64,000 nt of DNA from a bacterium (GTDB lineage: Bacteria > Patescibacteriota > Minisyncoccia > UBA6257 > GWB1-50-10): contig NZBZ01000018.1 of the NCBI GenBank assembly GCA_002686365.1, positions 32,286 to 96,285 on the forward strand, written 5' to 3'. Both the position numbers and the translations under genes were made by a program. This document shows positions 125 through 60,084 of this stretch, piece after piece (within the stretch, counting starts at the first letter, position 1; each line of letters opens with the position of its first letter). The notes beneath the pieces are model-generated. The model was not told the DNA's origin, made no database searches, and worked only from the letters and a program-made list of their open reading frames with translations.

Positions 125-346
125 CTATCTTTTTTTTCTTCGTCGTGTTGTCTTTCTCTTTGCCGGCTTTCTACGAGCTGTCTTTTTTCTCGTTGTTTTT
201 CTTTTTGCCGGTTTTCTCCTTGCTGTTTTTCTTTTGGCTGGCCTCCTTTTTGCTGGCTTCCTCTTCGCTGGCTTTCTTTTTGCTGTTTTTCTTTTTCTTG
301 GCATATATTTTGAAAATTTCTCTCTGTCAATTCCGACCTTTGACAC
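125..346 (-). CDS. Small highly basic repetitive protein, (K/R)RKPAKRK(T)A tandem repeats; histone H1-like / nucleoid-associated-like
   Basis: The ORF translation is dominated by KRKPAKRKTARRKPAKRK repeats. This resembles bacterial H1-like tails (Hc1/AlgP-type), an assignment made by composition only. Confidence 0.45.
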   Translation of the reverse strand: MSKVGIDREKFSKYMPRKRKTAKRKPAKRKPAKRRPAKRKTARRKPAKRKTTRKKTARRKPAKRKTTRRRKKR

Positions 347-544: not shown

Positions 545-1930
545 TTATTTTCTATTTTGCAGGAAGCGCATGAGAAGTCCGATTGGAGCGCCTGCAGCGC
601 CTTTTGCAAGATACTCTCCATGTATAGAAGTCATACGCGGCGCCATATCAATATGCGCCCATGGGCAGTCTAATTCTTTTGCAAACTGATATAAAAACAT
701 TGCAGCAGTAATTGCCCCCCCATACCTTGTCTTCCCAGAGTTTGTTACATCCCCGAATGTCCCTTTTATGTCTTCCTCATACTCATCCCAAAGCGGAAGA
801 GGCCACGCATAATCTCCAACGCTCTCTCCTGCTTCTATAAGCTGGCTCACCATTTTTTCATCTTTCCCTAGTATTGCGGATGCCCTTTTTCCAAGAGCTG
901 CCATTGCAGAACCAGTAAGCGTTGCAACATCTATTACGAGCTTTGGCTTAAACTCCTTTGCATAAGTTATAGCATCTGCCAAAATAACTCTTCCTTCTGC
1001 ATCAGTATGCCCTACCTCAATTGTCTTTCCAGACATTGTACGAAGAATATCTCCCGGACGGTAGCTTGAGCCGGAAGGCATATTCTCTACTGCTGGAATA
1101 AGCACTACAATGTGTTTCTTTAATTTAAGTTTTGCCGCAAGAATTATTGTGTGTAAAGCTGCTGCTCCTCCTGACATATCCATATGCATCTCATTCATAC
1201 TTAGGTCCGGCTTAATATTCAGCCCTCCAGTGTCAAAAGTTACTCCCTTTCCCACCAAAACCATTGGCTGACCCGCACTTCCTTTGTATCTCATGACAAT
1301 AAGCTTGGGCTCTTCTTTAGACCCCTCAGCAACACCAAGAATACCTCCCATTTTTAGTTTTCGTATATCTGACTTTCCTAATACTTCTACTTTTACTTTT
1401 GTCCCTTCTGCCCTTTTCTCTGCTGTGCTTGCGAGAAGCTTAGGAGTCATCTCTCCTCCTGGAGTATTTACAAGTTCTCTGCACGCATTTATTTCATCTC
1501 CTATAATCTGTCCCTTTTCTGCCCCTCTTTTTGTCGAGGCCCCCATCTTTCCATATAGCGTTACTTCTTCTATAAACCTCCATCCTTCTTGGGGCTTTGT
1601 TTTATACTTCACAAATTCAAAGTTTCCCATCTCTAGATTTGTAATAAGTATTTCAGCAAGTTCTCCTTCTTTTTCTTTTAATAGCTTCTTTAATTCGTCA
1701 AAATTAATGGCGATCTTCTTTATTCTTCTTGCTTTTGCAAGAGAAATAATCCTTCGCGGAAGAATAATAAGCTTTCTTCTAGAAAATTCCTTTTTTTTCC
1801 CTATTCCAACAACAATCTTTTTCTGTGCTTCTGGAGTAATATAGGCATCTTTTCTGCCTCCTTCTTTTATCTCAATAAGAGCAATATCCTTGTTTTTTGG
1901 GGCTTCTTTTGCAAAATTCAGCTTTATCAT
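545..1930 (-). CDS. pepA: Leucyl aminopeptidase, M17 family
   Basis: The NTDAEGRL-type motif (HTDAEGRVILADAITYA) and the length match the M17 family. Confidence 0.85.
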   Translation of the reverse strand: MIKLNFAKEAPKNKDIALIEIKEGGRKDAYITPEAQKKIVVGIGKKKEFSRRKLIILPRRIISLAKARRIKKIAINFDELKKLLKEKEGELAEILITNLEMGNFEFVKYKTKPQEGWRFIEEVTLYGKMGASTKRGAEKGQIIGDEINACRELVNTPGGEMTPKLLASTAEKRAEGTKVKVEVLGKSDIRKLKMGGILGVAEGSKEEPKLIVMRYKGSAGQPMVLVGKGVTFDTGGLNIKPDLSMNEMHMDMSGGAAALHTIILAAKLKLKKHIVVLIPAVENMPSGSSYRPGDILRTMSGKTIEVGHTDAEGRVILADAITYAKEFKPKLVIDVATLTGSAMAALGKRASAILGKDEKMVSQLIEAGESVGDYAWPLPLWDEYEEDIKGTFGDVTNSGKTRYGGAITAAMFLYQFAKELDCPWAHIDMAPRMTSIHGEYLAKGAAGAPIGLLMRFLQNRK

Positions 1931-2003
1931 GGTTTGAGTATACTATCATTTATCTAGAATTTTTTTCAACCCCAACGCTAAAATAAGTATTTTCTGCCTA
2001 CTT

Positions 2004-2534
2004 CTACTTATCGTGCAAAAATAACTTGAGTTTTTCCAAGGCACTGCGTCTCATAGAGATTTTATTCTTTTCTTCAGCGTCCATTTCAGCAAATGTCTTT
2101 TCGTGCCCCTCTGGAACAAAGATTGTGTCCCATCCAAAACCAGTCTCCCCCCTTGGCTTGGTCGGAATACTTCCTTCTATCTTTCCACGAAAACTTCTAA
2201 ACTCTTTACCATCATAATATCCAACTGCTGTCTCTGCTCTTGCTCTTCTGTCTCCTTTTAGCAGGTGCGGAATATTTTTAAATCCAATGGTTTTGTCTAC
2301 CCACTTTGCAAGCGCGCCGGGGAATCCCTTCCAACTTTCTATATACAGCCCAGTATCTTCTACAATTACTGGTTTTTGTATTTTTGCATATGCCTCACTT
2401 GCTTTGTGTTCAATAACTTTCTTCACATCAATCTCCTGAATTTCATCTAAATCAAGCTCAATCTGCTCAAGCTTTATTTCGAGTATTTCCTCGAACTCGC
2501 GCAGTTTATTTTTATTGCTTGTTACGAAATACAT
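2004..2534 (-). CDS. rdgB: Non-canonical purine NTP pyrophosphatase (Ham1/RdgB family)
   Basis: The N-terminus MYFVTSNKNKLREF.. and the ~180 aa length are typical of ITPases. Confidence 0.8.
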   Translation of the reverse strand: MYFVTSNKNKLREFEEILEIKLEQIELDLDEIQEIDVKKVIEHKASEAYAKIQKPVIVEDTGLYIESWKGFPGALAKWVDKTIGFKNIPHLLKGDRRARAETAVGYYDGKEFRSFRGKIEGSIPTKPRGETGFGWDTIFVPEGHEKTFAEMDAEEKNKISMRRSALEKLKLFLHDK

Positions 2535-2866
2535 AATTCATCTCCAATTTTTATCATTTCCTCCTGCAAAAGTATTGTTGGTATTTCTATAACCTTATTA
2601 AATCTTAAATTCCAAAAAAGGATCCGGCTTGGCTTTAAATTTCTTTTATACTTTACTACCTTCATCTTTTTATCAAGAATTGCTATATCTATTGAAAATG
2701 CCATGCCAAAGGTATGGATTCCCCAGCGAGTTTTGAAAAATAGCGCTGTTTTGCCATCAGACTTAATAAGACCATGCGATTTTTCTTTGTGCGTTTTTGC
2801 TTCCTCTATGTTTTCACAAATCACTACTTCTCTTGTGCGATTTATAAGAGACTTGGAGATACTCAT
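2522..2866 (-). CDS. DUF192-like protein
   Basis: The pattern GLIKSDGKTALFFKTRWGIHTFGMAFSIDIAILD resembles DUF192 (COG1430). Confidence 0.4.
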   Translation of the reverse strand: MSISKSLINRTREVVICENIEEAKTHKEKSHGLIKSDGKTALFFKTRWGIHTFGMAFSIDIAILDKKMKVVKYKRNLKPSRILFWNLRFNKVIEIPTILLQEEMIKIGDELCIS

Positions 2867-2924
2867 TGTGTTGGCACTTTATCACAAAACATGAAAAATA
2901 AAAATTGACTCTCTAAAATGCGGA

Positions 2925-2955
2925 AGAGGGCGCGACTCAAAAGTCGTTCGCCCTC
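2925..2955 (-). terminator. Intrinsic terminator after the primase-like gene (agagggcg...cgccctct stem, T-rich tail on the minus strand)
   Basis: An 8-bp GC-rich inverted repeat lies immediately 3' of the stop at 2957 and is followed on the minus strand by TTCCGCATTTTAG..TTTTTATTTTT. Confidence 0.55.
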
Positions 2956-2956
2956 T

Positions 2957-5671
2957 TTACGTACGCTGCTTCCAGCCTACCTCGGTCCACCACGTGTTGT
3001 AGTCGTCGTGGTCTCTGGCGTCCGGAAACGTGTCCAGGAATGCTGGCGTGAAGTCCTCGGCTTCACACTCTGCTTCCTTCAGGGTTTTGATGATTTTCTT
3101 CGTTGCTTTCCTGCCGGGCTCGTCGAAGTCAAGCGCGACGAAGATCTTCTTTCCGGCTCTCCCAGCTATCCCAATTGCATCAATCACAATGTTATTGTTG
3201 GTGCCGATAATTGCAATTGCGATTTTCCCGGGAAGAGCCTCCATGATGGTCAGCGCATCCATCACTCCCTCGCAGACGATAACTTCTTTGACCTTATCGT
3301 CGTTGAGCCGCCCTTCTCCAAACGCACCATTGGGGAAGCCGGTCCGAAGCTTCATATGCGCAAACCGTGTCTTCTTCTGACCTATCTCCCTTCCGTAGAA
3401 TCCAGTACGGAGTCCGCCCAATGTGAGCGGAAATGTTATGTATCCGTTGCGGCTCCATAGTGGGTTCCGAGGCAGAAGGAGACGCGTATTTCCTTCCTTG
3501 TCTTCTCCTTCCTTTCCAAGCTCCTTCAAAGTGAGCCCAAGTTCCTTCTGCAGCCTTCGGATAAATGGATTATCCGGCTGGACTGTCATGGATCGGGTTA
3601 TAACCCCGAATTGCTCGAGCTCTTCGAATTCGTGCCCCCTCTTCAGTAGGCCAAAGATGACTTCATCAGTCCAGAGTCCTGCTCCAAGATTCCATGCGAG
3701 TTCCGGATCCAGCCTGCGTACTTCTCGCAGGTAGTCTCCTCCTCGGCTTTTCCGGAATCCTCTTCGAAGGATTGTCTGGGCATCCCCCATAAGAACGCCC
3801 AGTTCTTCTGGAATGGCAACATCCTTAATGGACTTGGACGAAGCTTTAGTCCCTCTTTCTGCCCAGTTGCTTCGCACAACATCACGGATGTCGGAAAGCT
3901 CGGGCGGAATGCTCTCCTCTGCGATTACTCCATGCATCTCCCCGCATCCGTAGCAGTGAAAGTGTCCATCCTTGAGGTAGATGTGAAGCGAGGGAGTTCG
4001 TTCTCCGCCTCCTTCGTGACCCGTGTGGTTCGGGTTCATGCACTGGATCGATCCTCCAGTCCGCCAGTTGAACCCCTTGTTAATGGCTATGCGACTGTTC
4101 AGCATTGCCTCTCGAAGCGCTCCGATTTGCATTCGAAGCACTCTTTTACCTCGAACCATTGGTCCGAGTTCCACAATTCTTGTTTTCGGATCGATGAATT
4201 CACGAAAGTGCTCCGTAAGAAGAGCCACGGGCAAGGCAGAGCTCTTTCTCCATCCTTCTGCATGAGGAATATCAATCCTCATCTGCTCTGGCCTGCTTTC
4301 CTCCCAAGCCCTCTGTATTCCTCCATTTCTAACAAGACGATCGAGCGTGTGCTGTACTCTTCGCATTCTCGCCCACTGCCTTGCTCTGGACACACGTGGA
4401 GCAAACACCTCTCTCATATATACCTCTGCTTCTTCCATGGTGATGTGATGTATCATCTCACCATCCTGCAGAAGATATATAATTTCTCCACCTATCATAG
4501 GAGACGAGGAGAATGCCTTTTCAGGGCTTGCTATTCCGCGTGCTCTCCAATGACAAGCCAGTGTTGAGACCGCAAGATACCGCTTCATTTGACGCGCGTG
4601 GATTGCAAGCGGCTCCTTAATCACGTCGGACCGCTTTATTACCTTCCCCTTCGATCCTTCTGAAGGAAGGTTGTCTCCCACCGCGACCTTGAGGTCTAGG
4701 ATCCGCCCACTCACCTGTCTTCCGAGGCTCTTGCGCAGTCGATGCAGAATTGCATCTATGCTGTATTCCTTTAGCCCCCTAAGAGCTTTTAAGCACTCCT
4801 CTCTATTTTTGCCTCTTACCGGCTCTCTTTCCAGGAGTACCTGAAAGATGTCGGCTGGATGACGCCCTGCTCCAAACTCAAAGCCTGCAACAGGAATTTC
4901 AGTGAATACGAGAGATCCTTTCAACCCTTGTAGCGTCGCAGATGTTGGAAACCCTGCGCACGTACTGTATATTACCGCGCGTAGATATCTTCCAATTAGG
5001 TCCTCACCAAGAGACAGCCCTGAAATCCACTCTCCGACCTCTTGCGAAAGGAGGTCCCCTAGCTCAAACATGAGCCCTATGGATTTTGGGTATTTTTCTA
5101 CCCAGGCATTGTGATCTCTCAGCGGGGCATCTAATTCTCCGCGTATCTCTTCCACTCGCTCAAGAATGTTCTCAGGCACTCTCCGAACTACCGAGAAAAG
5201 TCTAGTATCTTCCTCGGCCTCAGCGTCTACATCTTCTTCTTCCACTCTCTCTGGCCACAGTATGAGCTCGCCCTGCCTACTTTCCTCTTCTAGGTCAAGG
5301 ACTCCCAGTACTGCTTCATGAACTCTCGTTCCGATGAGCCTCCATCTGTGTTCGTCCGGATCTCCATTGCTTCCGTTTACCGCGCTTCTTCTTTTCCTTG
5401 TGCCCACCTTTAAGTCTCCGGATGTCAGACTCGTCTCTGTGTCGGACCTCCTTACAATTGCATCTAGTTTCTGCAGTGCAAATCCAATGTCGGATCTTCC
5501 ATCCATTACGATCTGCAGATACTGGAGAAGGACCCCTTCCATATGGGCTTGTCCTGCCCAATCTCGGAATGTATGGGACAGTCCGCGTGTTTCCCGTATG
5601 GCTCGTTCAATCTGGGCTCCGGGCACAAACTCTATTCGACCCTGTTCACTCGCCATTTTGCGTATCACCAC
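2957..5671 (-). CDS. Large DnaG-like primase: N-terminal ~500 aa of unknown function + CHC2 zinc finger (HFHCYGCGEMHG) + primase core + TOPRIM (VIVCEGVMDAL...ALDFDEPG)
   Basis: The zinc-finger and TOPRIM motifs can be read in the translation. The gene is visibly GC-richer than its flanks and sits between its own terminator and an AT-rich intergenic region. Confidence 0.6.
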   Translation of the reverse strand: MVIRKMASEQGRIEFVPGAQIERAIRETRGLSHTFRDWAGQAHMEGVLLQYLQIVMDGRSDIGFALQKLDAIVRRSDTETSLTSGDLKVGTRKRRSAVNGSNGDPDEHRWRLIGTRVHEAVLGVLDLEEESRQGELILWPERVEEEDVDAEAEEDTRLFSVVRRVPENILERVEEIRGELDAPLRDHNAWVEKYPKSIGLMFELGDLLSQEVGEWISGLSLGEDLIGRYLRAVIYSTCAGFPTSATLQGLKGSLVFTEIPVAGFEFGAGRHPADIFQVLLEREPVRGKNREECLKALRGLKEYSIDAILHRLRKSLGRQVSGRILDLKVAVGDNLPSEGSKGKVIKRSDVIKEPLAIHARQMKRYLAVSTLACHWRARGIASPEKAFSSSPMIGGEIIYLLQDGEMIHHITMEEAEVYMREVFAPRVSRARQWARMRRVQHTLDRLVRNGGIQRAWEESRPEQMRIDIPHAEGWRKSSALPVALLTEHFREFIDPKTRIVELGPMVRGKRVLRMQIGALREAMLNSRIAINKGFNWRTGGSIQCMNPNHTGHEGGGERTPSLHIYLKDGHFHCYGCGEMHGVIAEESIPPELSDIRDVVRSNWAERGTKASSKSIKDVAIPEELGVLMGDAQTILRRGFRKSRGGDYLREVRRLDPELAWNLGAGLWTDEVIFGLLKRGHEFEELEQFGVITRSMTVQPDNPFIRRLQKELGLTLKELGKEGEDKEGNTRLLLPRNPLWSRNGYITFPLTLGGLRTGFYGREIGQKKTRFAHMKLRTGFPNGAFGEGRLNDDKVKEVIVCEGVMDALTIMEALPGKIAIAIIGTNNNIVIDAIGIAGRAGKKIFVALDFDEPGRKATKKIIKTLKEAECEAEDFTPAFLDTFPDARDHDDYNTWWTEVGWKQRT

Positions 5672-5779
5672 CCTTCTTTGGCTTTTTCTGTGATTTTCGG
5701 TTTTGGTTTTCCTCTGGTCCTATGCTACTTGAAGGAGCCCTTTTGGGTAAAGGGAAAAACTGTGGACAGCAAAAAAGGG

Positions 5780-7283: not shown

Positions 7284-8330
7284 TTACTGTTCTATTGCGC
7301 TTGCCCTTATATCTGCCGGCACAGGCACTCCTTCTTGGAGTCCGATTAATTTTAGGTATGGTAATGGAATTTCTATTGGGGCTGAGCTTTCCTCATCTTC
7401 ACTTAATTCCGCAAAAAGATTTATTGCAAATGAGATGCCGAGATCAAAACCTATGCCTGAAGGTATAAGTGAATTGTCTTTATATGCGTACAAAACTTCA
7501 GTTAAGATAGTGTTTCCCTGTTCGCCTTCCGCTGGTAGCAGTTCTTGTTTGACGTGATGAAGTCGTACTGGATTTTGACCTATCACCACTTTCGTCATCA
7601 TCTTTATTCCGCTTTCACCAAAATCTGTTGTGCTGTCAATACTCTGTATCGTGGTCTCTCCACTTTGTTCGGTGGTTAGACTTCCAATATCCTCCATTAG
7701 CACCTCCCCCCTTATCGTTCTTTGTATAGTGACCACTGTTGCCTTCTCTCCGTTTATTATCCCCTCAGATGCTTCTGTAAATTGGGTTATATTTTGAACA
7801 TTACTCGGAGGATAAAATAATGATTCTATATTCTGTAGTGCAATGTAAGGAGCGGGCATGAGTAGAAATGATTTTGATTTCGCTGCTTTCACTGCTTGTC
7901 CTCCTTCCTGTATTACAAATAGTTCCTGTTCCGTAACATATATTTCTCCTGTTACTTGCGGTTCTCCCTGTAGTGCTAGCTCTGGATTAAACACATTTAT
8001 ATTGTCTCTGTCTTCTATCGTATGCATCTCCATATCAGCATGGAATACATCTGGCCACGCTTCCTTGTGGCGTTTTGCTACCTCCTGAATCAATTCTAGG
8101 GGGTCTTTGGGCAACCCTACTGTTTTTGGCTCTTCTTTTGATTCTCCACTTCCTACCTGTATGCTTTTTTCTGTTTGCGCATTTTCTTGTGCACTCGTAC
8201 TGCTGTCGTTTCTTGAAATAAGCTGCTGTTCAATGAACCCAGCTCCTACTCCCACAGCTAGTCCTATAATTACTGATATAAGTACTGCCACTACTACTCC
8301 GCCTTCATTTTTTTCTTCTGAATATATCAT
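7284..8330 (-). CDS. Hypothetical membrane-anchored/secreted protein
   Basis: An N-terminal TM/signal segment is present; no other family was recognised. Confidence 0.4.
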   Translation of the reverse strand: MIYSEEKNEGGVVVAVLISVIIGLAVGVGAGFIEQQLISRNDSSTSAQENAQTEKSIQVGSGESKEEPKTVGLPKDPLELIQEVAKRHKEAWPDVFHADMEMHTIEDRDNINVFNPELALQGEPQVTGEIYVTEQELFVIQEGGQAVKAAKSKSFLLMPAPYIALQNIESLFYPPSNVQNITQFTEASEGIINGEKATVVTIQRTIRGEVLMEDIGSLTTEQSGETTIQSIDSTTDFGESGIKMMTKVVIGQNPVRLHHVKQELLPAEGEQGNTILTEVLYAYKDNSLIPSGIGFDLGISFAINLFAELSEDEESSAPIEIPLPYLKLIGLQEGVPVPADIRASAIEQ

Positions 8331-8381
8331 ATTGCCATTATAACATTTTAAAGAATCTCCCCCACAGGTTTCTGTTAGGGG

Positions 8382-10103
8382 TCATGAGTTCTCCAATTTT
8401 CGAAGCTTTTTCTGGATGCGCTCCTCCTGCCCACGGCGGGCAAAGTCATAGTTGCCGAGGTTTACCATGATGCGCTCCGCTATCATGGGATAGGCCTTTT
8501 CTACGAGGCGAAACTTCTGCTGTTCTATAGAACGGTAGTCTGGATGCCCTTCTGGGATGGTACGAAGCTCCATTTTCCAAAATATCTGCCTTAGGTTCTC
8601 CCACTGCATAAAGCGAAGGCGGTGCGCAAGGGTTACTGCGTACTGGGCAAGATCAGGATCATGGCGCGCAATTTTTTCGTACACCTCTTGGGCCGGCTCT
8701 ATGGCACCCTTATACTCTTCTTCCAATCCAGCCTCCTTTATTTCTTCTGGAATATCATATCCATGATGCGTAGAGAAGTTTTGTCTTTGCTGAGTAAGCA
8801 TTCTATGCCTATGGAGATCACGCCAAGCGCCGATATTTACGATTGTCTCAAATCTCATATATGTATTTTCAAGCGCTCTCCCCACCTTCTGCCATCTAAC
8901 AGTGCGTCCCTCAAGGTATTTGTCGAGAATGTTTTTCTTTTCCTCTTCTGTCATCTTTCTAATACGTCGGAGAAGTTCTTTCCATCCTCTGTGATTGTTT
9001 GGCGCACTATAAAGAATTCCTGCGATAATCTTATTCTCTCCCTCAAGATCGTGCTCAAGAAGCCGCACCTTAGTTTGGCGATCGCTTGAGACTGTTCCCT
9101 TTTCTTTGAAAACCTCTTCAACTGCTGGCGCAAGACGCCTGCCCTTGCCTGCAAGATATTCCTGATATGAATCTACTGCTTCTTTCTTGTCCTCGTCTTT
9201 TAATCTTCGCAAAAAGGATGGAGTAACTTTGTAAAGCTCCTCTAAAGCCTCATTCGCTGCCCATCGGATTTCTCCAAGTGAGTGCTTTCCCGACCTGCTT
9301 ATCATGTACTCAAATGCCTGCCCATTTCCAAAAAAGGCAACTTGCGAGAGGGTTGAGGCTGGAAGGAGTCCGCGTACTGTATCAAATGCCTTCTTCTCAA
9401 TTACCGACTTCTCTTCTTTTGGAAACTTCTTTGTAAGATATTCGCTTAGCTTTGGAATAAAGTCTGTGTAGGCGTCAAAGAGTCCGTCCATTGCATTCTC
9501 ATATTCAGTTTTCAGTCTTAGCTTTTTTAGCGTTGGATCTGTGTAGTACAAGTACTTCCCTCCTACTTTTTTGGAGTAGTTTACATAGCGTGTGGATTTC
9601 TCAATTGGAGCAAGTCCAATACGCTGGTCTTCAAAGTGTTTTATTGCAACTTGTGAAATGCCCTGAAAGATAAGATGAGATCCTGCCATCTGCGCGATAG
9701 AATCATCTCCATATTCTGCAAGCCACTTTACATAGAAGGAGCGGGCCCTTGGGTTTGCAAAAAGTTCTGATACTGGATGTTTATGCAGAAAGTCGATGAA
9801 CTCTCTTAATCCTTCTCCGTATTTCTGCTTCTCTTTCCAAACTTCTTCCGTATCTTTTGGTTCTCGCTCTGCTTCTATAAAGGGGGCTATATACTCCTTC
9901 AAAAATATGGGACGTAGATCACCCTTTACCCGGCTTGTTCTTGAGCATAGCGCGCCAATAAGCTCCGGAGGGAGCAGTATTGGGGCGTACACCGACTTAT
10001 CACAGTTTGTAAAAAAGGGCTCTAGATACTTCTTCTCTTCTGCCTGATACTTGTTTTTTAGAAAAATTGGAGCGAATTCTTCAAGATTTTCCTTTGATTC
10101 CAT
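8382..10103 (-). CDS. Long ThyX-like protein (FAD-dependent thymidylate synthase-like C-terminal domain; N-terminal ~350 aa unknown)
   Basis: The C-terminal region carries an RHR motif followed by QQRQNF, then ..LAQYAVTLAHRLRF..W..LRQIFWKMELRT. This resembles the ThyX RHR...SQRY...ARFVLP...LRHFFxLR...AQWEIR order. Long (~530 aa) ThyX forms are known in other bacteria. Confidence 0.4.
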   Translation of the reverse strand: MESKENLEEFAPIFLKNKYQAEEKKYLEPFFTNCDKSVYAPILLPPELIGALCSRTSRVKGDLRPIFLKEYIAPFIEAEREPKDTEEVWKEKQKYGEGLREFIDFLHKHPVSELFANPRARSFYVKWLAEYGDDSIAQMAGSHLIFQGISQVAIKHFEDQRIGLAPIEKSTRYVNYSKKVGGKYLYYTDPTLKKLRLKTEYENAMDGLFDAYTDFIPKLSEYLTKKFPKEEKSVIEKKAFDTVRGLLPASTLSQVAFFGNGQAFEYMISRSGKHSLGEIRWAANEALEELYKVTPSFLRRLKDEDKKEAVDSYQEYLAGKGRRLAPAVEEVFKEKGTVSSDRQTKVRLLEHDLEGENKIIAGILYSAPNNHRGWKELLRRIRKMTEEEKKNILDKYLEGRTVRWQKVGRALENTYMRFETIVNIGAWRDLHRHRMLTQQRQNFSTHHGYDIPEEIKEAGLEEEYKGAIEPAQEVYEKIARHDPDLAQYAVTLAHRLRFMQWENLRQIFWKMELRTIPEGHPDYRSIEQQKFRLVEKAYPMIAERIMVNLGNYDFARRGQEERIQKKLRKLENS

Positions 10104-22159: not shown

Positions 22160-22687
22160 GTGATATCCTTTTGCCCAGATGAGTGCCCTTATGGAGTGGT
22201 TATCCATTGGGCATTCTCCCGGAAATCAGGATCTCGCAACGTGCGGATTTACCGCACATTCAGAGAGGTAGCCTGCATGCCTACTGCGTACACGAATCTG
22301 GCACGCGAACTTCGGAAGTGCCGAGATGGCTCCGTGAGTCAGGACAATGATCCAGATGCCCGCGAGCTGCTTAGGATTACCGCAGCGCTGATCCAGGGTC
22401 TTCTGGGCCTGACCGATGTCCAGCTGAGGTCCTCGCTTTCGAGGGGACTCTTCGGACTTCCCCTTGACCGTTTCGGTAGGTGCGGTAAGCGGACCATGGA
22501 TGCCGTCAACGCGTTTGCGGACGGATGTCTCTCAGACAGTGCGCGAGACGAGTTCCTTCAGCTCATAGGTTCGTCGAGTACTGAGAGAACTCAAGGGCTC
22601 AACCAGATCTGGAAGATCATTGCTTGCTTAGATCGCGTTGCCGAGCCGACCAGGTCATCCGGCGATCTCGCCGCTGCTTCGGCCTGA
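22160..22687 (+). CDS. Hypothetical protein in GC-rich island (true start possibly the Met at 22277, MPTAYTNLAREL..)
   Basis: ORF only. Confidence 0.3.
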   Translation: MISFCPDECPYGVVIHWAFSRKSGSRNVRIYRTFREVACMPTAYTNLARELRKCRDGSVSQDNDPDARELLRITAALIQGLLGLTDVQLRSSLSRGLFGLPLDRFGRCGKRTMDAVNAFADGCLSDSARDEFLQLIGSSSTERTQGLNQIWKIIACLDRVAEPTRSSGDLAAASA

Positions 22688-22747: not shown

Positions 22748-23800
22748 TTAAGACTCTATCTTTTCCCACGGGAGATCTGGTTTGCCAAAGTGGCCATATG
22801 CAGCTGTCTGCCTATAAATTGGAGCTTGGAGATTCAGGCGTTCAATAATTGCCTTGGGACGAAAGTCGTACTTGTCCCTTATCTCATTTGCAATACTTTC
22901 CCCATTTTCATTTAAGGCCTCAATCATGACCGGCTCTGCCCGGCCTATAGCGTAGGCTACTGACATAAGACACTTCTTTGCAGCTCCGCGCGCTACAAGA
23001 TTTTTCGCAGCAAAGCGGCACATGTAGGCTGCGGAACGGTCTACTTTTGTAGGATCCTTCCCAGAAAAGCATCCTCCGCCATGCGGTATAAGTCCGCCAT
23101 AGGTATCTACCATAATCTTTCTTCCTGTCAGACCTGCGTCTGCCTCAAATCCGCCTTGGACAAACTTGCCTGTTGGATTTATTAGAACTTCGATTTTTGA
23201 CACGTCTTCTACAAGCGGAGCAATAAGTTTTTCAATAAGAGTTTTTCGAATTTCCTCCTGAGAAACTTCTTCATCATGCTGACAACTTACTAAAATGGTT
23301 TTGATTTCGCCGTCTTCTATAGTGACCTGCGCCTTACCATCCGGACCAAGCCATGGAATCTCTCCCTTCTTTCTTAAGTTCTCAAGTCCATATGTCAGCT
23401 TGTGAACAAGCACAATGCCTTTTGGCAAAAACTCTTCTGTTTCATCTGTTGCATACCCATACATAATACCCTGATCCCCTGCTCCGCCTGTATCCACGCC
23501 TTGAGCAATATCCGGAGATTGCTGAACTATTTGCGTAATAATTTTTAGGTCTTCTTTATATCCGATGTCTGTGTATATATCTCGCGCTAGTTTCTCAAAA
23601 TCTATTTTCGCGCTTGTTGTAATCTCTCCCCCTAGAACAAGAAGTCCGTGGGACCCAAGCACTTCTGCTCCGGCTCGTGTTTTAGGATCGACTTTTAAAC
23701 ACTCATCTAAGATGGCGTCTGAAATCTGGTCACAGACCTTATCTGGATGGCCAGAAGTAACTGATTCGACTGTGTAGACTTTTGGATTGGATAAAATCAT
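22748..23800 (-). CDS. metK: S-adenosylmethionine synthetase
   Basis: GHPDKVCDQISDA, GAGDQG and GGGCFSGKD motifs are all present. Confidence 0.95.
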   Translation of the reverse strand: MILSNPKVYTVESVTSGHPDKVCDQISDAILDECLKVDPKTRAGAEVLGSHGLLVLGGEITTSAKIDFEKLARDIYTDIGYKEDLKIITQIVQQSPDIAQGVDTGGAGDQGIMYGYATDETEEFLPKGIVLVHKLTYGLENLRKKGEIPWLGPDGKAQVTIEDGEIKTILVSCQHDEEVSQEEIRKTLIEKLIAPLVEDVSKIEVLINPTGKFVQGGFEADAGLTGRKIMVDTYGGLIPHGGGCFSGKDPTKVDRSAAYMCRFAAKNLVARGAAKKCLMSVAYAIGRAEPVMIEALNENGESIANEIRDKYDFRPKAIIERLNLQAPIYRQTAAYGHFGKPDLPWEKIES

Positions 23801-23904: not shown

Positions 23905-24025
23905 GAAGATTCGACTTAGTTATCTTTCCCATTTGGGACTGGATTTGGCACCTTTCTTACAGTGTCACCTGTAAGCGGTTGCCGGCGGATCATTGGGCCA
24001 GTTCCCTTACCGCACTCTTAATAAT
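23905..24025 (-). promoter_or_regulatory. SAM-I (S-box) riboswitch in the metK leader
   Basis: The minus-strand RNA reads UAUUAAGAGUGCGGUAAGGGAACUGGCCCAAUGAUCCGCCGGCAACC GCUUACAGGUGACACUGUAAG AAAGGUGCCAAAUCCAGUCCCAAAUGGGAAAGAUAACUAAG. This matches the SAM-I consensus (AAGAG.GG.AGGGA.CUGGCCC.AUGA..C.GGCAACC ... AAGGUGC.AAAUCC.G ... GAAAGAU.A) and keeps the P1/P3/P4 pairings. Confidence 0.85.
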
Positions 24026-24176
24026 TATTTAATTGTATTTTTATTTTATTATTTATTTTTATAGAAGTCAATATACTTTTGTGGATATTCTTATGTTGAC
24101 AGCAGTTAAGTTAGAGGAGTAGTGTGATTATAGGATTTCGACATGTGCGTTGGGGAGATCCTTGGAGGACACTCCT

Positions 24177-38652: not shown

Positions 38653-40263
38653 TTACGAGTCTCTTTGGCGCGACTCCTCTCTCCATGTCATGTATTCCGA
38701 GCTTTGCATGAGCTCAGGAAGATACTTCGTCCTGCACCAGTGGAGTAGCCACCCTCCTTGTCCTGTTTCCAGAGAGATCTCTTCGTGAGCCTCAGGCTGC
38801 ACCTCCTGAAACTCTCTTATCTCTCCTTCCCAGAGCACGAGGGCGTTCGTTCCAGGATTGTAGGAGGATATTTCCTCGATATGCGTAAGGAGGACTCCTT
38901 CTTTTTGAAGCTCTGCCTCGCGCCCTCTCGCTTCCCCCTCACTTTCGAACCACTCGACCTCAGACTTTGGACATTCCGCCAGTATTCCTGCGTCTATCCA
39001 GTGCCCGTTTAGCGCCTCGTTTATCTTATCTGTGACGAAGCTGTCGCTGTTGGCCAAGAGGCTTTCTTTTGTGAAGACCTTGCGATCCCATAGCCACTTG
39101 ATGACTAGAGTTGCGAGAAAGTGCTCGAGTGTTCGAGTTGTTGGGTTCGCATAGACGCTCTTGATGAGGCGTGCCCGCAAACGCAGGAAGTGCTCAAATC
39201 GCGAAACGTCTGTAACTACGGCCTTGTCCTCTATCACTTGCACAGAATCCCAGCATCCGCACACGCAAGGCGTGGTGCTTATCATGTGCTCAATGCTGTG
39301 GTCGTAGCCTACACTTACGTTCTGACAGCTGCAGTACGCGACTGCGTCTCCGCCCACATAGGCGAATCGATCAGCAAGATTAAGTATCTCGCCGAGTATC
39401 CCTTGCCCCTGGATCGTGTCAATCACACGTTCGGCAGAGATATTGAGCAACTGCAGTCTTGCAGCATGCTGCCAAATGAGAGGGACACAGGTTTCTTCCT
39501 CATCCAGCTCCTCTCCGACTGCCATCTTGGTCGTGTCTCCGCCAGCTGGAGTTGTAATGTCGTGGAGCACAGCCGCTGCCTCAAGGACCCTCATGTCCTC
39601 CTCAGAGAGGCCGCTGTTCGCTCCGATGAGCACTGCAATTCCAACCACAGAAAGCGTGTGTACCAGCCGTGTGTGAGAGAAGAGCATTCTACTCTCTGTC
39701 TCTTCCCTCTCCATCCTCACCATAACGCCGGCAAGAAATCCTAGTTGCCGGATTTCTCTTAAGCGCCATCCATCAAAGAGGGTTAGTAGCTGCTCTGTAA
39801 GTCCCCCTCGGTGGAAGATGCATCCGGTTCCTGTAAGAGGGAAGGTTGGAACGATCTGACTTGGATCTTCCGTTTCTATGAGCGCATGCGACTGACGCAG
39901 ATGCCTTCTCAGTACTCCCGGAAGCTCTTCTGTCCAAGGCGGCTCATCGCCTTTATTCTCTTCTCTGTTCCTGAGGTAGGCGTTTTCGACAATGATGATT
40001 TGCAGTATACTACTTGTTTTTTCTGCTTTCTCATCATTAACGATTTTCCGCCACACTTCACAAGAAATCGCGTCTATCCAGTCTTTCATAGAACGCGCTT
40101 CTTGTGCTGTAATCTGCGGTATAAAGGTTATATCTTCGATTCGTACGCATTTCTCAAAGCCTTGTGCCATATACATGCCATATTCTCCTTGAAAAGTGCT
40201 AAAAACGAGCCTTTCTATAGGCATTTTAGGTATACCAGTCCTCCTTTCTTTCGTCAAAGTCAC
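38653..40263 (-). CDS. HD-domain phosphohydrolase-superfamily protein (536 aa) with a large uncharacterised C-terminal region; GC-rich
   Basis: H..H...LHD..D pattern (FSHTRLVHTLSV ... AAAVLHDITTPAGGD); no specific subfamily recognised. Confidence 0.5.
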   Translation of the reverse strand: MTLTKERRTGIPKMPIERLVFSTFQGEYGMYMAQGFEKCVRIEDITFIPQITAQEARSMKDWIDAISCEVWRKIVNDEKAEKTSSILQIIIVENAYLRNREENKGDEPPWTEELPGVLRRHLRQSHALIETEDPSQIVPTFPLTGTGCIFHRGGLTEQLLTLFDGWRLREIRQLGFLAGVMVRMEREETESRMLFSHTRLVHTLSVVGIAVLIGANSGLSEEDMRVLEAAAVLHDITTPAGGDTTKMAVGEELDEEETCVPLIWQHAARLQLLNISAERVIDTIQGQGILGEILNLADRFAYVGGDAVAYCSCQNVSVGYDHSIEHMISTTPCVCGCWDSVQVIEDKAVVTDVSRFEHFLRLRARLIKSVYANPTTRTLEHFLATLVIKWLWDRKVFTKESLLANSDSFVTDKINEALNGHWIDAGILAECPKSEVEWFESEGEARGREAELQKEGVLLTHIEEISSYNPGTNALVLWEGEIREFQEVQPEAHEEISLETGQGGWLLHWCRTKYLPELMQSSEYMTWREESRQRDS

Positions 40264-41178: not shown

Positions 41179-41604
41179 TCATGCGAGATTCACGCTTGTC
41201 TTCCAAGTCGTGGGCACGAGACCAATAACTCCCGCGCACATCAACCTCCAAACAATGAAGAACGCCTTGTCGAATTCCCCTTTCGTTTGTGGGTCTATTA
41301 ATGACGTCAATATCACGCAGAGCATCGCAATAGAGGCGCCAAAGGACAGGATGAAGAAAATCGTGCCCAGCGCTATCATGAGTTTCGAGGTCGTAAGGAT
41401 GGCGCCAATAGTCCCTACCACAATCAATGCCCCGAAGAAACTCTGTAAGCAGTGGAGCAGTATGGCGTATTGCCCCTGTTGGTCACCACTCACCAACATC
41501 AGAAATGGGACTATTGATACCCCAGTAGCGATTATGAAGGTCAAGGTCATTGACCTTAGCGTCCCTCTAGACACTCCTCGCCGCAGGAGAATTTTGTGCA
41601 GCAT
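41179..41604 (-). CDS. Membrane protein paralog P3 (MLHKILLRRGVSRGTLR..., 4 TM); the ORF-track N-terminal extension is probably not translated
   Basis: Paralogy with P1 and P2. Confidence 0.45.
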   Translation of the reverse strand: MLHKILLRRGVSRGTLRSMTLTFIIATGVSIVPFLMLVSGDQQGQYAILLHCLQSFFGALIVVGTIGAILTTSKLMIALGTIFFILSFGASIAMLCVILTSLIDPQTKGEFDKAFFIVWRLMCAGVIGLVPTTWKTSVNLA

Positions 41605-41654
41605 GCGATCACCCCCTCTCTTCTCTTGTGGGCTTGAAGATTGAGACGGATCAC

Positions 41655-41873
41655 CTAAGTTAATGAGCCACCTAATCTTGGTTTGTGAGACACGTAGATC
41701 ATTATAGATCCAAGTGCCCCCACCAAGAACAATCCTACCATGGCATACGCCAATACAGGTGGCATCACTGGTAGTTCTGCTGCCTCTTGGCCAGAAGAGC
41801 ATATGATACTCGATATATATCCTGCCGGCACCGCGCCCATGGTGAAGAAGGTCCTAAAAAGTATTCTTCGCAT
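41655..41873 (-). CDS. Small membrane protein (2 TM) downstream of a copy of the conserved promoter
   Basis: ORF plus promoter motif copy at 41920..41962. Confidence 0.35.
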   Translation of the reverse strand: MRRILFRTFFTMGAVPAGYISSIICSSGQEAAELPVMPPVLAYAMVGLFLVGALGSIMIYVSHKPRLGGSLT

Positions 41874-49811: not shown

Positions 49812-50264
49812 TTATGTTTCGCCTTGGTCGGCCAGATTTCGGAGTCTTTCCCTCTCTTCTTGTGCCAACCATCTTACGACGCGGCACGCGAGAAGAAGTG
49901 CGATCGCAGCAACTGCTCCTGCCACCATTCCGTAGATTCTGTAGGGTCCGAAGATTCCACCTGCCATGATGGCGCCTATTGTGCCGTAAAGCAGAGCGAA
50001 GACAATGATTCCGTTCCGCTTGCGCTTGCGCTTCCTTTCTGCATCGAGAAAAGCGAGCCCTCTAGAAGCGTTTGCGTATTGCTCTCTCTCGAGCAAGAAC
50101 CAGAGAAGTGCTCCGATGAATGCCGAGACAATCACCGTGATAGATAGGTTCATCGCCCATGCTGTAAATAGAGAGCTTCCGTTAAGTGTGGCTACGAACA
50201 TCATGCCACCGCCTATGAATCCCCCTAGCGCTCCTGTTGCGGCTCCCTTTAGCGCTGCACCCAT
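49812..50264 (-). CDS. GC-rich hypothetical membrane protein (G/A-rich TM helices)
   Basis: ORF with TM helices, inside a GC-rich island. Confidence 0.4.
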   Translation of the reverse strand: MGAALKGAATGALGGFIGGGMMFVATLNGSSLFTAWAMNLSITVIVSAFIGALLWFLLEREQYANASRGLAFLDAERKRKRKRNGIIVFALLYGTIGAIMAGGIFGPYRIYGMVAGAVAAIALLLACRVVRWLAQEERERLRNLADQGET

Positions 50265-50300: not shown

Positions 50301-50684
50301 CTATTCTATGTAGACTTCGTACCGCGTGAGGATGCATGAGGCAAGAGTGCAGACCGCAGCAAGTCCAGCTGCTGCCTTTCCGTGCACTCCTCCTACCATG
50401 TAGGCGCCCACTATGCTGTTGGATGCGGTAAAGAGAATGACGATAATCCACCCATACCCTGTTGCAATTGGGCGTAGCGGCGCCTTCCTGCCAAATGGGT
50501 TTGGACTTCCAAGCCGAGTCCCGAAAAACAATGCAACACTTGCCACGAGGGCGAAGTTCACGATTATGGCTGAATCTGAATCCCACTCGAAGATGAGTTC
50601 GCTTGCAAGAGCGCCAAACGCTCCTACTACGACTCCTGCTGCTGTTGCAATGAAGACGCCGACCACAACATCTATGGCCTTCAT
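50301..50684 (-). CDS. GC-rich hypothetical membrane protein, distantly similar to 49812..50264
   Basis: ORF with TM helices, inside a GC-rich island. Confidence 0.4.
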   Translation of the reverse strand: MKAIDVVVGVFIATAAGVVVGAFGALASELIFEWDSDSAIIVNFALVASVALFFGTRLGSPNPFGRKAPLRPIATGYGWIIVILFTASNSIVGAYMVGGVHGKAAAGLAAVCTLASCILTRYEVYIE

Positions 50685-59182: not shown

Positions 59183-59299
59183 TTCTCGTCCTTCCGAGTT
59201 CACTTCCCCAGATTGGCCTGGAGATCTATCGCAACTATACTTGTCCTTTTTCCTTTTTTCAACTTTTTGTATTTTGTGTGGATAACTTTTGAGTTATGG

Positions 59300-59751: not shown

Positions 59752-60084
59752 ATGGCAGATGAAGATACAGGCGGCGGATTCCAAAGGCAGATGTACCAAG
59801 GTAACTGGACCTGCTCTGGATGTGGAAACGCCATCACTGAACTTCCTTTTGAGCCGGATCCATCTCGTGCTGACAGCTTGCTCTGTCGAGAATGTCACCA
59901 ACAAAAGCGTGATTCTCGAGGAGGGGGCGGCGGAGGCGGAGGATTTGGACGAAAGATGTTTCAGGGAAATTGGAAGTGCTCAGGTTGTGGAGGCGATATT
60001 ACAGAGCTTCCATTTGAACCTGATCCATCCCGGCTTGAGAACTTGAAGTGTAGAGATTGCTTCAAGAAAGAGAAGGGATACTAG
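59752..60084 (+). CDS. Tandem-duplicated CxxC-x17-CxxC zinc-ribbon protein with a poly-Gly linker
   Basis: Two ~40-aa repeats MYQGNWTCSGCGNAITELPFEPDPSR..LCRECHQ / MFQGNWKCSGCGGDITELPFEPDPSR..LKCRDCF. Confidence 0.6.
   Translation: MADEDTGGGFQRQMYQGNWTCSGCGNAITELPFEPDPSRADSLLCRECHQQKRDSRGGGGGGGGFGRKMFQGNWKCSGCGGDITELPFEPDPSRLENLKCRDCFKKEKGY

What the first reader, a model, noticed from the sequence alone, without database searches (positions are those of the whole stretch)
2957..5671. 904-aa DnaG-like primase with a ~500-aa uncharacterised N-terminal domain, alone in a GC-rich island
The C-terminal ~370 aa carry a CHC2 primase zinc finger (HFHCYGCGEMHG) and a TOPRIM fold (VIVCEGVMD..., ALDFDEPG) in the DnaG order. 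The first ~500 residues match nothing I recognise.

The gene has its own terminator (2925..2955) and is compositionally foreign, so it is more likely a mobile-element or phage replication-initiation protein than the housekeeping primase. Fusions of primase to novel N-terminal domains often mark new replicons or defence islands.
Basis: partly seen in the sequence, partly recalled or inferred. Interest (0 to 1): 0.65.

Follow-up and report, generated by a model that had tools for sequence, protein, structure and literature searches.

The report
Nuclease–primase fusion gene of CPR bacteria
This gene encodes a previously undescribed fusion of a DNA-cutting enzyme (RecB/Cas4-like nuclease) to a bacterial DnaG-type primase; the fusion occurs only in a few ultra-small CPR bacteria, sits alongside the normal primase in the one genome where that could be checked, and was recently imported into this genome.

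Summary
ORF 2957..5671 (-) is real, though its start is probably the ATG at 5656 (899 aa). Its C-terminal third is a DnaG-type primase with a CHC2 zinc finger and an RNA-polymerase/TOPRIM domain, but no helicase-binding domain. It is the only gene in a GC-rich island (GC3 0.52 against 0.36±0.04 for its neighbours).

The N-terminal ~500 aa hit nothing in Pfam, NCBIfam, PHROGs, PADLOC or PDB sequences, but they are not an orphan. An exhaustive HMMER search found about 47 clusters of mostly collinear ~900-aa proteins. All 14 genome loci recovered from named organisms come from CPR/Patescibacteria MAGs.

The family alignment, AlphaFold models and Foldseek hits point to a helical domain followed by a RecB/Cas4-like PD-(D/E)xK nuclease (E258, D274, D326-x-K328, Q361-x3-Y365). 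In most members the disordered linkers carry QxxLF motifs that match the β-clamp-binding consensus; these are degenerate in the window copy.

One MAG carries a family member 3.7 kb from a canonical dnaG-rpoD operon, so the family is a paralogue, not the housekeeping primase. No integrase, att site, tRNA, viral-contig hit or conserved partner gene supports a phage or mobile-element replicon.

Best reading: an accessory nuclease–primase for repair or re-priming that does not depend on the replicative helicase, recently acquired here by horizontal transfer. The function is inferred, not shown.

The parts
2960..5656 (-). Coding sequence of the nuclease-primase fusion. It is 899 aa from ATG 5656, or 904 aa if the GTG at 5671 is used. 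The stop codon TAA is at 2957-2959.
   Evidence: ORF list; upstream sequence with GGTGGTGA before the ATG; 899-aa public gene call on the source contig.
4925..5623 (-). N-terminal alpha-helical domain (residues 17-249). It contains invariant G114 and H118 and is interrupted by disordered linker 1.
   Evidence: AF2 models show helices 18-125 and 167-249 with pLDDT mostly 75-94; invariant columns in A1 and A3.
5174..5296 (-). Disordered acidic linker 1 (residues 126-166). In 17 of 34 relatives it carries Q-x-x-[LIM]-F motifs that match the clamp-binding consensus. Here only degenerate versions are present (QGELILW, DTRLF).
   Evidence: pLDDT below 50 for 127-163; motif census and shuffle control.
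4328..4924 (-). Predicted RecB/Cas4-like PD-(D/E)xK nuclease core (residues 250-448). Key residues are E258, D274, D326-L-K328, G332-D333, H358, Q361, Y365 and Y399.
   Evidence: Conserved columns (E258 and Q361 invariant in A3, ≥90% in A1). AF2 secondary structure b255-260, b272-280, b320-329, a356-378, b392-401, b404-410. The weak Foldseek hits are dominated by MGME1, AdnAB, Cas4 and PD-(D/E)XK or Cas4-family exonucleases.
4232..4327 (-). Disordered linker 2 (residues 449-480). In 7 of 34 relatives it holds a QxxLF-type motif; none is recognisable here.
   Evidence: pLDDT below 50 for 459-478.
4082..4231 (-). Small conserved beta-hairpin plus helix module (residues 481-530) ahead of the zinc finger, with D494 and E501 conserved.
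   Evidence: AF2 secondary structure E500-506, E509-514, H516-524; conservation.
3902..4081 (-). CHC2 zinc-binding domain of DnaG type (residues 531-590: C544, H549, C573, C576).
   Evidence: Pfam Zn_ribbon_DnaG; invariant Cys columns; profile matches to 2au3 and 1d0q.
2960..3829 (-). DnaG-type RNA-polymerase domain (residues 615-904). TOPRIM spans about 791-904 with E801, D848/D850 and D887-D890. The protein ends here, with no helicase-binding domain.
   Evidence: Toprim Pfam hits; TIGR01391 partial match; PDB profile hits to DnaG RNA-polymerase domains; Foldseek to 4e2k, 5guj and 5w34 with TMt 0.52-0.56; conserved acidic residues.
2924..2957 (-). GC-rich hairpin overlapping the stop codon. 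It looks like a terminator but has no adjoining U-tract.
   Evidence: RNA fold -22.2 kcal/mol, z=-3.55; not called by the consensus scan.
5657..5779 (-). Upstream intergenic region between folC and the gene. It holds the Shine-Dalgarno-like GGTGGTGA, and the GC step lies at about 5750.
   Evidence: Sequence; composition profile.

Best explanation
The gene encodes a single polypeptide that joins two DNA enzymes. Residues ~17-450 form a helical domain wrapped around a highly divergent RecB/Cas4-type PD-(D/E)xK nuclease. Residues ~530-904 form a DnaG-type primase (CHC2 zinc finger plus RNA-polymerase/TOPRIM domain) that lacks the C-terminal DnaB-binding domain.

It belongs to a sparse family of collinear ~900-aa proteins found so far only in CPR/Patescibacteria. 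There it is a stand-alone chromosomal gene that exists in addition to the normal dnaG.

Inferred mechanism: the protein acts on DNA independently of the replicative helicase. In most family members it is tethered to the β sliding clamp through QxxLF motifs in its disordered linkers. The nuclease trims a 5' end, flap or broken end, and the primase lays an RNA primer on the exposed single strand. This would serve repair, gap filling or replication restart.

The copy in this window was acquired recently by horizontal transfer from a GC-richer, probably CPR, donor.

Shown: the architecture, conservation of the catalytic residues, the taxonomic range, the coexistence with dnaG and the compositional foreignness. 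Inferred: both enzyme activities, clamp binding and the biological role.
For: Architecture and family:
- Exhaustive HMMER with residues 1-520 found 48 representatives including the query's own cluster. Most are 850-950 aa and collinear.
- The 34-sequence alignment has invariant D274, K328, G332, D333, H358 and Y365. E258, D326 and Q361 are conserved in at least 90% (E258 and Q361 are invariant in A3).

Nuclease:
- These residues fall on strands b255-260, b272-280 and b320-329 and on helix 356-378 of confident AF2 models (pLDDT 80.6 and 77.6). This is the order E / D / DxK / QxxxY of RecB-family nucleases (family knowledge).
- No single Foldseek hit is significant, but the top hits are almost all RecB-type nucleases. 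Against PDB they are MGME1, AdnAB and Cas4. Against BFVD they are Cas4-family exonucleases (probability 0.94), PD-(D/E)XK, alk-exo and YqaJ proteins.

Primase. E801, D850 and D890 are conserved in at least 90% of members, and C544, C573 and C576 are invariant.

Not the housekeeping primase:
- L009/L024 holds a family member plus a canonical DnaG (Zn_ribbon 1e-31, DNAG_N 1e-32, Toprim, and a DnaB_bind match just below its cut-off) followed by RpoD.
- The two are only 26% identical, over the primase part alone.
- The window protein aligns to the L009 member at 2e-44 over 720 aa.

Taxon: all 14 genome loci are CPR MAGs.

Clamp motif: there are 29 Q..[LIM]F motifs in 2,773 linker residues against 4 in 28,025 residues elsewhere. 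Shuffled linkers give 1.3±1.1, and 0 of 1000 shuffles reach 29. The clamp-binding consensus QL[S/D]LF / QxxLF is taken from PMC12309361.

Horizontal transfer: GC3 z=+3.6 here, against -1.1 to +1.7 in the 16 other loci.
Against: - No sequence-profile method recognises the nuclease, and hhalign against the E. coli RecB nuclease domain found nothing.
- The model coordinates could not be inspected, so the clustering of the conserved residues into one active site is not verified.
- The window protein and its closest relative lack a strict QxxLF motif, so clamp binding is least certain for this very copy.
- Coexistence with canonical dnaG was seen in only one genome (two loci from the same population). 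The rest of this genome could not be searched.
- No conserved neighbour gives a functional clue.
- The TOPRIM domain could act as a nuclease or a nucleic-acid binder rather than a primase.
Confidence: 0.55

Rival explanations
1. It is the replication-initiation or primase protein of an integrated phage, plasmid or other mobile element. The GC-rich island would be the remnant of that element.
For: - The composition is strongly foreign (GC3 z=+3.6).
- The best profile hit of the primase part is a phage family, phrog_47 (3.5e-19).
- The gene has its own Shine-Dalgarno sequence and a hairpin.
- The family is sparse, with milder GC excess in a few other loci (L004 z=1.7, L027 z=1.4).
Against: - The island contains only this gene.
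- There is no tRNA, and flanking repeats are no better than chance.
- No integrase or transposase appears among 68 neighbours drawn from 16 non-redundant loci.
- No relative was found in IMG/VR viral contigs.
- In 16 of 17 loci the gene has host-like GC3 and sits among housekeeping genes.
- The family profile and the model match cellular DnaG better than T4 or T7 primases.
Confidence: 0.12
2. It is the genome's only replicative primase: a native dnaG with a lineage-specific N-terminal extension.
For: - It has a complete zinc-binding domain and RNA-polymerase domain with intact catalytic residues.
- Relatives are single-copy, sit in housekeeping neighbourhoods and are compositionally native in most hosts.
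- No canonical dnaG was found in the 64-kb window or in 4 kb beyond it.
Against: - A canonical dnaG-rpoD operon lies 3.7 kb from a family member in L009/L024.
- The protein has no helicase-binding domain and is not in a dnaG-rpoD context.
- TIGR01391 scores 46 bits against a cut-off of 283.6.
- The family is rare: 48 clusters among 1.8 billion representatives.
- This copy is compositionally foreign, which is unexpected for an essential native gene.
Confidence: 0.08
3. It is a stand-alone anti-phage defence effector. The nuclease destroys invading DNA, and the primase-like domain acts as sensor or co-effector, by analogy with the DnaG-type primases attached to defence reverse transcriptases (UG6, UG24, UG29).
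For: - PADLOC 'RTasDnaG-like' matches at 2.2e-17 and RT_UG29 at 4.9e-7, both on the primase part.
- DnaG-type primases are documented in UG/Abi defence systems (PMC9226505).
- The distribution is sporadic, with a horizontal-transfer signature, and a nuclease domain is present.
Against: - No reverse transcriptase or other defence gene is adjacent in the window or in the relatives' loci.
- There is no PADLOC hit outside the generic primase region.
- Motifs matching the clamp-binding consensus suggest association with the host replisome or repair machinery rather than with an invader.
Confidence: 0.15

Closest known systems
Bacterial DnaG primase (TIGR01391; structures 2au3, 4e2k, 5guj, 5w34)
   Same: It has a CHC2 zinc-binding domain followed by the two-subdomain RNA-polymerase/TOPRIM domain in the same order. 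The TOPRIM Glu, the DxD motif and the C-terminal acidic cluster are conserved. The profile E-value against 2au3 is 5.8e-21, and Foldseek target-normalised TM is 0.43-0.56.
   Different: A ~530-aa N-terminal extension precedes the zinc finger. There is no C-terminal DnaB-binding domain. The score is far below the equivalog cut-off. The gene is not in a dnaG-rpoD operon, and in at least one genome it coexists with a true DnaG.
RecB-family PD-(D/E)xK nucleases (RecB/AddAB/AdnAB nuclease domains, Cas4, MGME1, phage Cas4-like or DUF2800-type exonucleases)
   Same: The catalytic motifs come in the same order (E ... GxxD ... DxK ... QxxxY) on an α/β core. These proteins dominate the weak Foldseek hit lists. 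Phage Cas4-like exonucleases work in replication modules next to primases, which gives a functional precedent (my knowledge).
   Different: There is no detectable sequence similarity. There are no conserved cysteines for the Cas4/AddB Fe-S cluster. A two-helix insertion lies between strands 2 and 3, and a ~230-aa helical domain lies in front. The domain is fused to a primase, not to a helicase or to Cas1.
Primase fusions of mobile elements and organelles (T7 gp4/Twinkle primase-helicase, P4 alpha, conjugative-plasmid TOPRIM primases)
   Same: These are also DnaG-type primase modules that work apart from the cell's own DnaG-DnaB pair by being fused to another replication activity. T7, T4 and Twinkle appear among the structural hits.
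   Different: Here the partner domain is a nuclease, not a helicase. The gene is chromosomal and solitary, and no viral relative was found.
DnaG-type primases associated with UG/Abi defence reverse transcriptases (PADLOC RTasDnaG-like, UG29)
   Same: This is the best-scoring PADLOC model on the primase part (61 bits). It shows that DnaG-type primases are used outside chromosome replication (PMC9226505).
   Different: No reverse transcriptase or hydrolase partner is present, and the N-terminal nuclease is absent from those systems as described.
β-clamp clients with QL[S/D]LF motifs (polymerases, Hda, MutS/L, transposases, RecBCD)
   Same: Family members carry one to three QxxLF pentapeptides in disordered linkers, for example QLSLF, QLALF and QLPLF. 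The consensus is cited from PMC12309361. Paper titles and abstracts listed report clamp binding by RecBCD and by transposases; those papers were not read.
   Different: Binding is untested. The motif is degenerate in the window protein. No primase is known to me to use the clamp.

Membership tests
DnaG replicative primase (TIGR01391 equivalog) | CHC2 zinc-binding domain | tested here: met
   C544, H549, C573 and C576 are conserved. Pfam Zn_ribbon_DnaG is found in 32 of 34 members, but at 19.9 bits against a cut-off of 24.9 for the window protein. The family profile matches 2au3 and 1d0q.
DnaG replicative primase (TIGR01391 equivalog) | RNA-polymerase domain with TOPRIM fold and conserved acidic residues | tested here: met
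   Toprim_2, _3, _4 and Toprim all score above their cut-offs. E801, D850 and D890 are conserved in at least 90% of members. Foldseek to DnaG RNA-polymerase domains gives E about 1e-6 and TMt 0.52-0.56.
DnaG replicative primase (TIGR01391 equivalog) | C-terminal helicase (DnaB)-binding domain | tested here: not met
   The protein ends about 14 residues after the last TOPRIM acidic cluster. No member hits DnaB_bind or DnaG_DnaB_bind, whereas the canonical DnaG of L009 gives a DnaB_bind match, though just below its cut-off (20.1 against 20.6 bits).
DnaG replicative primase (TIGR01391 equivalog) | Score at or above the curated equivalog cut-off | tested here: not met
   46.1 bits against a cut-off of 283.6.
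DnaG replicative primase (TIGR01391 equivalog) | Sole primase of the genome, typically in a dnaG-rpoD operon | tested here: not met
   The neighbours here are folC and DUF192. In L009/L024 a separate dnaG-rpoD operon coexists with a family member. The rest of this genome could not be searched.
RecB/Cas4-type PD-(D/E)xK nuclease | α/β core with catalytic D and (D/E)xK on consecutive strands | tested here: met
   D274 lies at the start of b272-280 and D326-x-K328 at the end of b320-329. D274 and K328 are invariant.
RecB/Cas4-type PD-(D/E)xK nuclease | QxxxY motif in the helix after the DxK strand | tested here: met
   Q361 and Y365 lie in helix 356-378. Y365 is invariant in both alignments, and Q361 is invariant in A3 and conserved in at least 90% of A1.
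RecB/Cas4-type PD-(D/E)xK nuclease | Statistically significant sequence or structure match to a family member | tested here: inconclusive
Cas4 / AddB subgroup | Four conserved cysteines binding an Fe-S cluster | tested here: not met
   No cysteine column in residues 1-530 is conserved.
β-clamp-binding proteins | QL[S/D]LF / QxxLF pentapeptide in an exposed or disordered segment | tested here: inconclusive
   The feature is met for the family: 17 of 34 members in linker 1 and 7 of 34 in linker 2, roughly 70-fold enrichment per residue, and 0 of 1000 shuffles reach the observed count. It is not strictly met in the window protein, which has only QGELILW and DTRLF. Binding itself cannot be tested with these tools.
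Phage or mobile-element replication protein | Location within an element (integrase, att sites, tRNA target, other element genes) or presence on viral or plasmid contigs | tested here: not met
DRT / UG-Abi reverse-transcriptase-associated DnaG-like primase | Adjacent or fused reverse transcriptase and hydrolase | tested here: not met
   The neighbours are FolC, DUF192, Ham1 and the M17 peptidase. No reverse-transcriptase family appears among the listed top families of the relatives' neighbours.

The most novel reading that the evidence does not exclude
The family is a new class of bacterial DNA-maintenance enzyme: a clamp-tethered nuclease-primase that works without the replicative helicase. 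It would process a stalled or broken DNA end and re-prime synthesis in one polypeptide, functionally like a bacterial counterpart of eukaryotic Dna2/MGME1-type processing combined with PrimPol-type re-priming. It would have evolved in the minimal genomes of CPR bacteria and spread among them by horizontal transfer.
Probability: 0.3. Interest if true: 0.78.

Novelty: new variant of a known kind. Interest (0 to 1): 0.6.

Why it matters
Bacteria are generally taken to use one DnaG primase, which is coupled to the DnaB helicase. Here a second DnaG-type primase has lost the helicase-binding domain, is fused to a nuclease that no profile library recognises, and in most members carries motifs matching the sliding-clamp-binding consensus.

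If that reading is right, it points to a priming pathway independent of the replicative helicase. It occurs in organisms with ~1-Mb genomes, where a 2.7-kb accessory gene is costly to keep.

The work also adds a new, very divergent branch to the RecB/Cas4 nuclease superfamily and a defined, testable protein for CPR DNA metabolism, which is almost unstudied experimentally.

The window copy is one of several GC-rich single-gene insertions with clean boundaries, which makes this genome a useful case for studying how CPR bacteria acquire genes.

Tried and rejected
- Three word-indexed protein searches (full length, family alignment A1, N-domain alignment A3) returned only the query's own fragment plus generic DnaG or CHC2-zinc-finger primases, or the fragment alone. 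They gave no source names and no ids usable for context look-ups.
- Pfam, NCBIfam, PHROGs and PADLOC gave nothing on the N-domain of the window protein or of 24-34 relatives.
- PDB sequence search with the N-domain profile gave only a chance hit to a flagellar protein.
- hhalign of the N-domain profile against the E. coli RecB nuclease domain gave no significant match.
- I tried to build a RecB or Cas4 target profile from phage records. tblastn found only true RecB genes, so I dropped this.
- The search for att-like flanking repeats found only a 34-nt AT-rich pair at 71% identity, one copy of which lies inside the DUF192 gene. I judged it chance.
- No tRNA is present in the window.
- The viral-contig scan found no relative.
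- An exact-sequence look-up of the neighbouring FolC, meant to find strain variants without the insertion, returned only the same Tara scaffold.
- I looked for a conserved partner gene across 31 loci. Only lineage-level synteny appeared (a GIY-YIG protein downstream in six related loci, a 116-140-aa ORF upstream in four), and nothing was family-wide.
- I considered and rejected an assembly chimera as the cause of the GC step. The boundaries coincide with intergenic regions, and three assemblies carry the same contig.
Full report
**Observation**

The window holds a 904-aa ORF at 2957..5671 on the minus strand. The first codon is GTG. An ATG five codons downstream (5656) is preceded by GGTGGTGA, and the public gene call on the source contig is 899 aa. 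I therefore take 5656 as the start.

The contig is ENA ERZ2773065, TARA_SAMEA2619974 scaffold_103, 105 kb. The only database twin is a Tara 0.1-0.22 µm fragment.

The gene has GC 0.515 and GC3 0.517. Eleven flanking ORFs average GC3 0.362±0.043, so z=+3.6. Lys/Arg usage is inverted: K 5.1%, R 9.6%, against K 10-14%, R ~5% in the adjoining genes.

The GC step coincides with the intergenic regions on both sides, so the island is exactly one gene. A hairpin at 2924-2957 overlaps the stop codon (-22.2 kcal/mol, z=-3.55). It has no adjoining U-tract and was not called by the consensus terminator scan.

**The primase part**

- Pfam finds four Toprim families at 796-892 and, below threshold, the DnaG CHC2 zinc ribbon at 556-582.
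- TIGR01391 matches only partially, at 46 bits against a cut-off of 283.6.
- phrog_47 'DNA primase' covers 529-868 at 3.5e-19.
- A profile of the family matches Aquifex DnaG (2au3, zinc-binding plus RNA-polymerase domains) at 5.8e-21, as well as the S. aureus, E. coli and M. tuberculosis RNA-polymerase domains.
- The AlphaFold model of the full protein (pLDDT 80.6, pTM 0.67) matches DnaG structures by Foldseek at E 1e-7 to 1e-6. Target-normalised TM is 0.52-0.56 over ~300 residues for the four RNA-polymerase-domain structures and 0.43 for 2au3. These are better than the T4, T7 and Twinkle primase matches.
- The zinc ligands (C544, H549, C573, C576), the TOPRIM Glu (E801), the DxD motif (D848/D850) and the last acidic cluster (D887-D890) are conserved across the family.
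- The protein stops about 14 residues after that cluster, so there is no helicase-binding domain.

**The N-terminal 500 residues**

No library recognises them. This holds for the window protein and for 24-34 relatives scanned one by one against Pfam, NCBIfam and PHROGs. It also holds for the window protein against PADLOC and for PDB sequence searches.

They are nevertheless conserved. An exhaustive HMMER scan of 1.84 billion cluster representatives with residues 1-520 found 48 proteins at E≤1e-3. Most are 850-950 aa with the match at the same position.

In the 34-sequence alignment the invariant or near-invariant positions form a recognisable pattern:

- LFxE (E258)
- GxGRxD-ALEV (D274)
- D-W-K-FAVGD (D326, K328, G332, D333)
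- PLxxHxxQxxRY (H358, Q361, Y365)

In two independent AlphaFold runs (pLDDT 85-95 in this region) these residues sit on strand 255-260, at the start of strand 272-280, at the end of strand 320-329 and in helix 356-378. Two more strands follow.

This is the order and placement of motifs in RecB-family PD-(D/E)xK nucleases: an acidic residue, GxxD, (D/E)xK and QxxxY. That statement rests on my knowledge of the family.

Foldseek gives no individually significant hit, but the lists are telling:

- Against PDB, ranks 1-3, 5-13, 15 and 17 are MGME1, AdnAB and Cas4 chains.
- Against viral models, most named hits are 'Cas4 family exonuclease' (probability 0.94), 'PD-(D/E)XK endonuclease-like', alk-exo, YqaJ or exodeoxyribonuclease 8.

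Residues 17-249 are a helical domain with invariant G114 and H118. Residues 481-530 are a small β-hairpin/helix module.

**Linker motifs**

The two segments that AlphaFold leaves disordered (126-166 and 449-480) are highly enriched across the family in Q-x-x-[LIM]-F.

- There are 29 occurrences in 2,773 linker residues, against 4 in 28,025 residues elsewhere.
- Shuffled linkers give 1.3±1.1, and none of 1000 shuffles reaches 29.
- Examples are QLSLF, QLALF, QLPLF, QLNLF and QVSLF.
- These match the bacterial sliding-clamp-binding consensus QL[S/D]LF / QxxLF (PMC12309361).

This suggests that family members are tethered to DnaN. The window protein and its nearest relative (P0002, 33-36% identity) have only degenerate versions (QGELILW, DTRLF). 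For this copy the inference is therefore weakest.

**Who has it, and is it the native primase?**

A scan of one genome per GTDB species with the DWKFAVGD pattern returned 14 loci. All are from CPR/Patescibacteria MAGs: Paceibacterota, Nomurabacteria, Yanofskybacteria, Minisyncoccia and MAGs labelled Saccharibacteria. A metagenome scan added 16 more loci. A viral-contig scan found none.

One Minisyncoccia contig (L009, also recovered as L024) carries a family member at 1864-4629. At 8302-10011, 3.7 kb away, it carries a canonical DnaG (Zn_ribbon 1e-31, DNAG_N 1e-32, Toprim, and a DnaB_bind match just below its cut-off) followed by RpoD.

The two proteins share 26% identity over the primase part only. 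The window protein aligns with the L009 family member over 720 residues at 2e-44.

The family is therefore a paralogue of dnaG, at least in that genome. The rest of the window's genome could not be searched.

**Context and mobility**

Neighbourhoods are conserved only among close relatives. Sixty-eight neighbours from 16 non-redundant loci are assorted housekeeping genes: YceG, TsaD, MnmA, FtsH, a PBP, SmpB, FtsZ, Obg and others. No family recurs, and no integrase or transposase appears.

In the window the neighbours are FolC upstream and DUF192, Ham1 and an M17 peptidase downstream. There is no tRNA and no credible flanking repeat.

Across 17 loci spanning hosts of about 39-59% flanking-gene GC, the family gene's GC3 lies within -1.1 to +1.7 SD of its neighbours. 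The exception is this window, at +3.6 SD.

The family is thus a long-resident chromosomal gene in most hosts, and the window copy is a recent import. No sampled relative is closer than ~35% identity, so the donor is unknown.

**Mechanism**

Shown:

- A single polypeptide with an intact-looking PD-(D/E)xK site and an intact-looking DnaG primase site.
- No helicase-binding domain.
- Motifs matching the clamp-binding consensus in the family.
- Coexistence with dnaG in one genome.

Inferred: the protein is brought to DNA by the clamp or by its own domains rather than by DnaB. The nuclease trims a 5' end, flap or break, and the primase starts synthesis on the exposed strand, for repair, gap filling or restart. 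I put about 0.55 on the overall statement, with high confidence in the architecture and modest confidence in the role.

Rivals:

- A defence effector (0.15). The precedent is DnaG-type primases in UG/Abi reverse-transcriptase systems.
- A mobile-element replication protein (0.12).
- The sole native primase (0.08).

**Comparison and novelty**

The catalytic modules are known kinds. The combination of a nuclease N-terminal to a DnaG primase, the extreme divergence of the nuclease, the loss of the helicase-binding domain and the clamp-type motifs were not found in the literature I could search. A Cas4 phylogenomics survey that lists Cas4 fusions does not mention primase anywhere in its main text.

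I rate it a new variant of a known kind, with interest 0.6.

Noticed in passing
window 22160-22687(+), 38653-40263(-), 41179-41802(-), 49812-50264(-), 50301-50684(-), 52494-53048(-), 58154-59203(-): At least seven other ORFs share the primase gene's GC3-rich signature (GC3 0.52-0.60 against about 0.31-0.46 for the other 33 ORFs tabulated). They lie singly or in small clusters across the window. They include an HD-domain protein and a PurM/AIR-synthase-family protein. This genome appears peppered with foreign insertions of one or a few genes that carry no visible mobile-element genes.
   Followed up: partly
L013 220-1746 (Paceibacterota MAG LejiaF_44_27): This is a complete 508-aa ORF consisting only of the N-terminal helical and nuclease module (matching residues 4-467). 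It is followed directly by the same neighbour gene that follows the full-length gene in L010. The primase half has therefore been lost, or the nuclease module can stand alone. Several ~500-aa database members (P0010, P0035, P0036, P0039) may be the same kind, or may be fragments.
   Followed up: partly
L005 6557-7471, L008 8807-9655, L011/L019 9797-10642, L016 2740-3624, L028 2520-3377: A ~285-300-aa ORF lies immediately downstream of the family gene in six related loci; the one scanned (L005) has a GIY-YIG nuclease domain. It could be a partner, a homing-type endonuclease or plain synteny.
   Followed up: partly
L009 8302-11226 (= L024 16406-19330): A canonical dnaG-rpoD operon lies 3.7 kb downstream of the nuclease-primase gene in a Minisyncoccia MAG from the SPRUCE peat site.
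   Followed up: yes
window 23917-24027(-): A SAM riboswitch (RF00162, 65.7 bits) sits directly upstream of the S-adenosylmethionine synthetase-like ORF at 22748-23800(-).
   Followed up: no
window 125-346(-): A 73-aa ORF is made almost entirely of basic repeats (KRKPAKRK and variants). It is called as a gene on the public contig. It may be a histone-like or nucleic-acid-binding protein.
   Followed up: no
window 59752-60084(+): A 110-aa protein has two near-identical CxxC...CxxC zinc-ribbon repeats (GNW[TK]CSGCG...ELPFEPDPSR...C[RK][ED]C) joined by a poly-Gly linker, in a GC-rich stretch.
   Followed up: no
neighbours of family loci (alignment A4): One of the 68 neighbouring proteins is a Mu Gam-like (Ku-like DNA-end-binding) protein (Pfam 1.7e-26). 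It is a single occurrence, and I did not identify which locus it comes from.
   Followed up: no
L004 12832-18315 and L015 17151-18872 (just beyond window position 1): A small ORF (86-95 aa) is followed by a large protein with no Pfam hit (1733 aa in L004). This pair occurs downstream of the family gene both in a MAG labelled Saccharibacteria and on the window's own contig.
   Followed up: no
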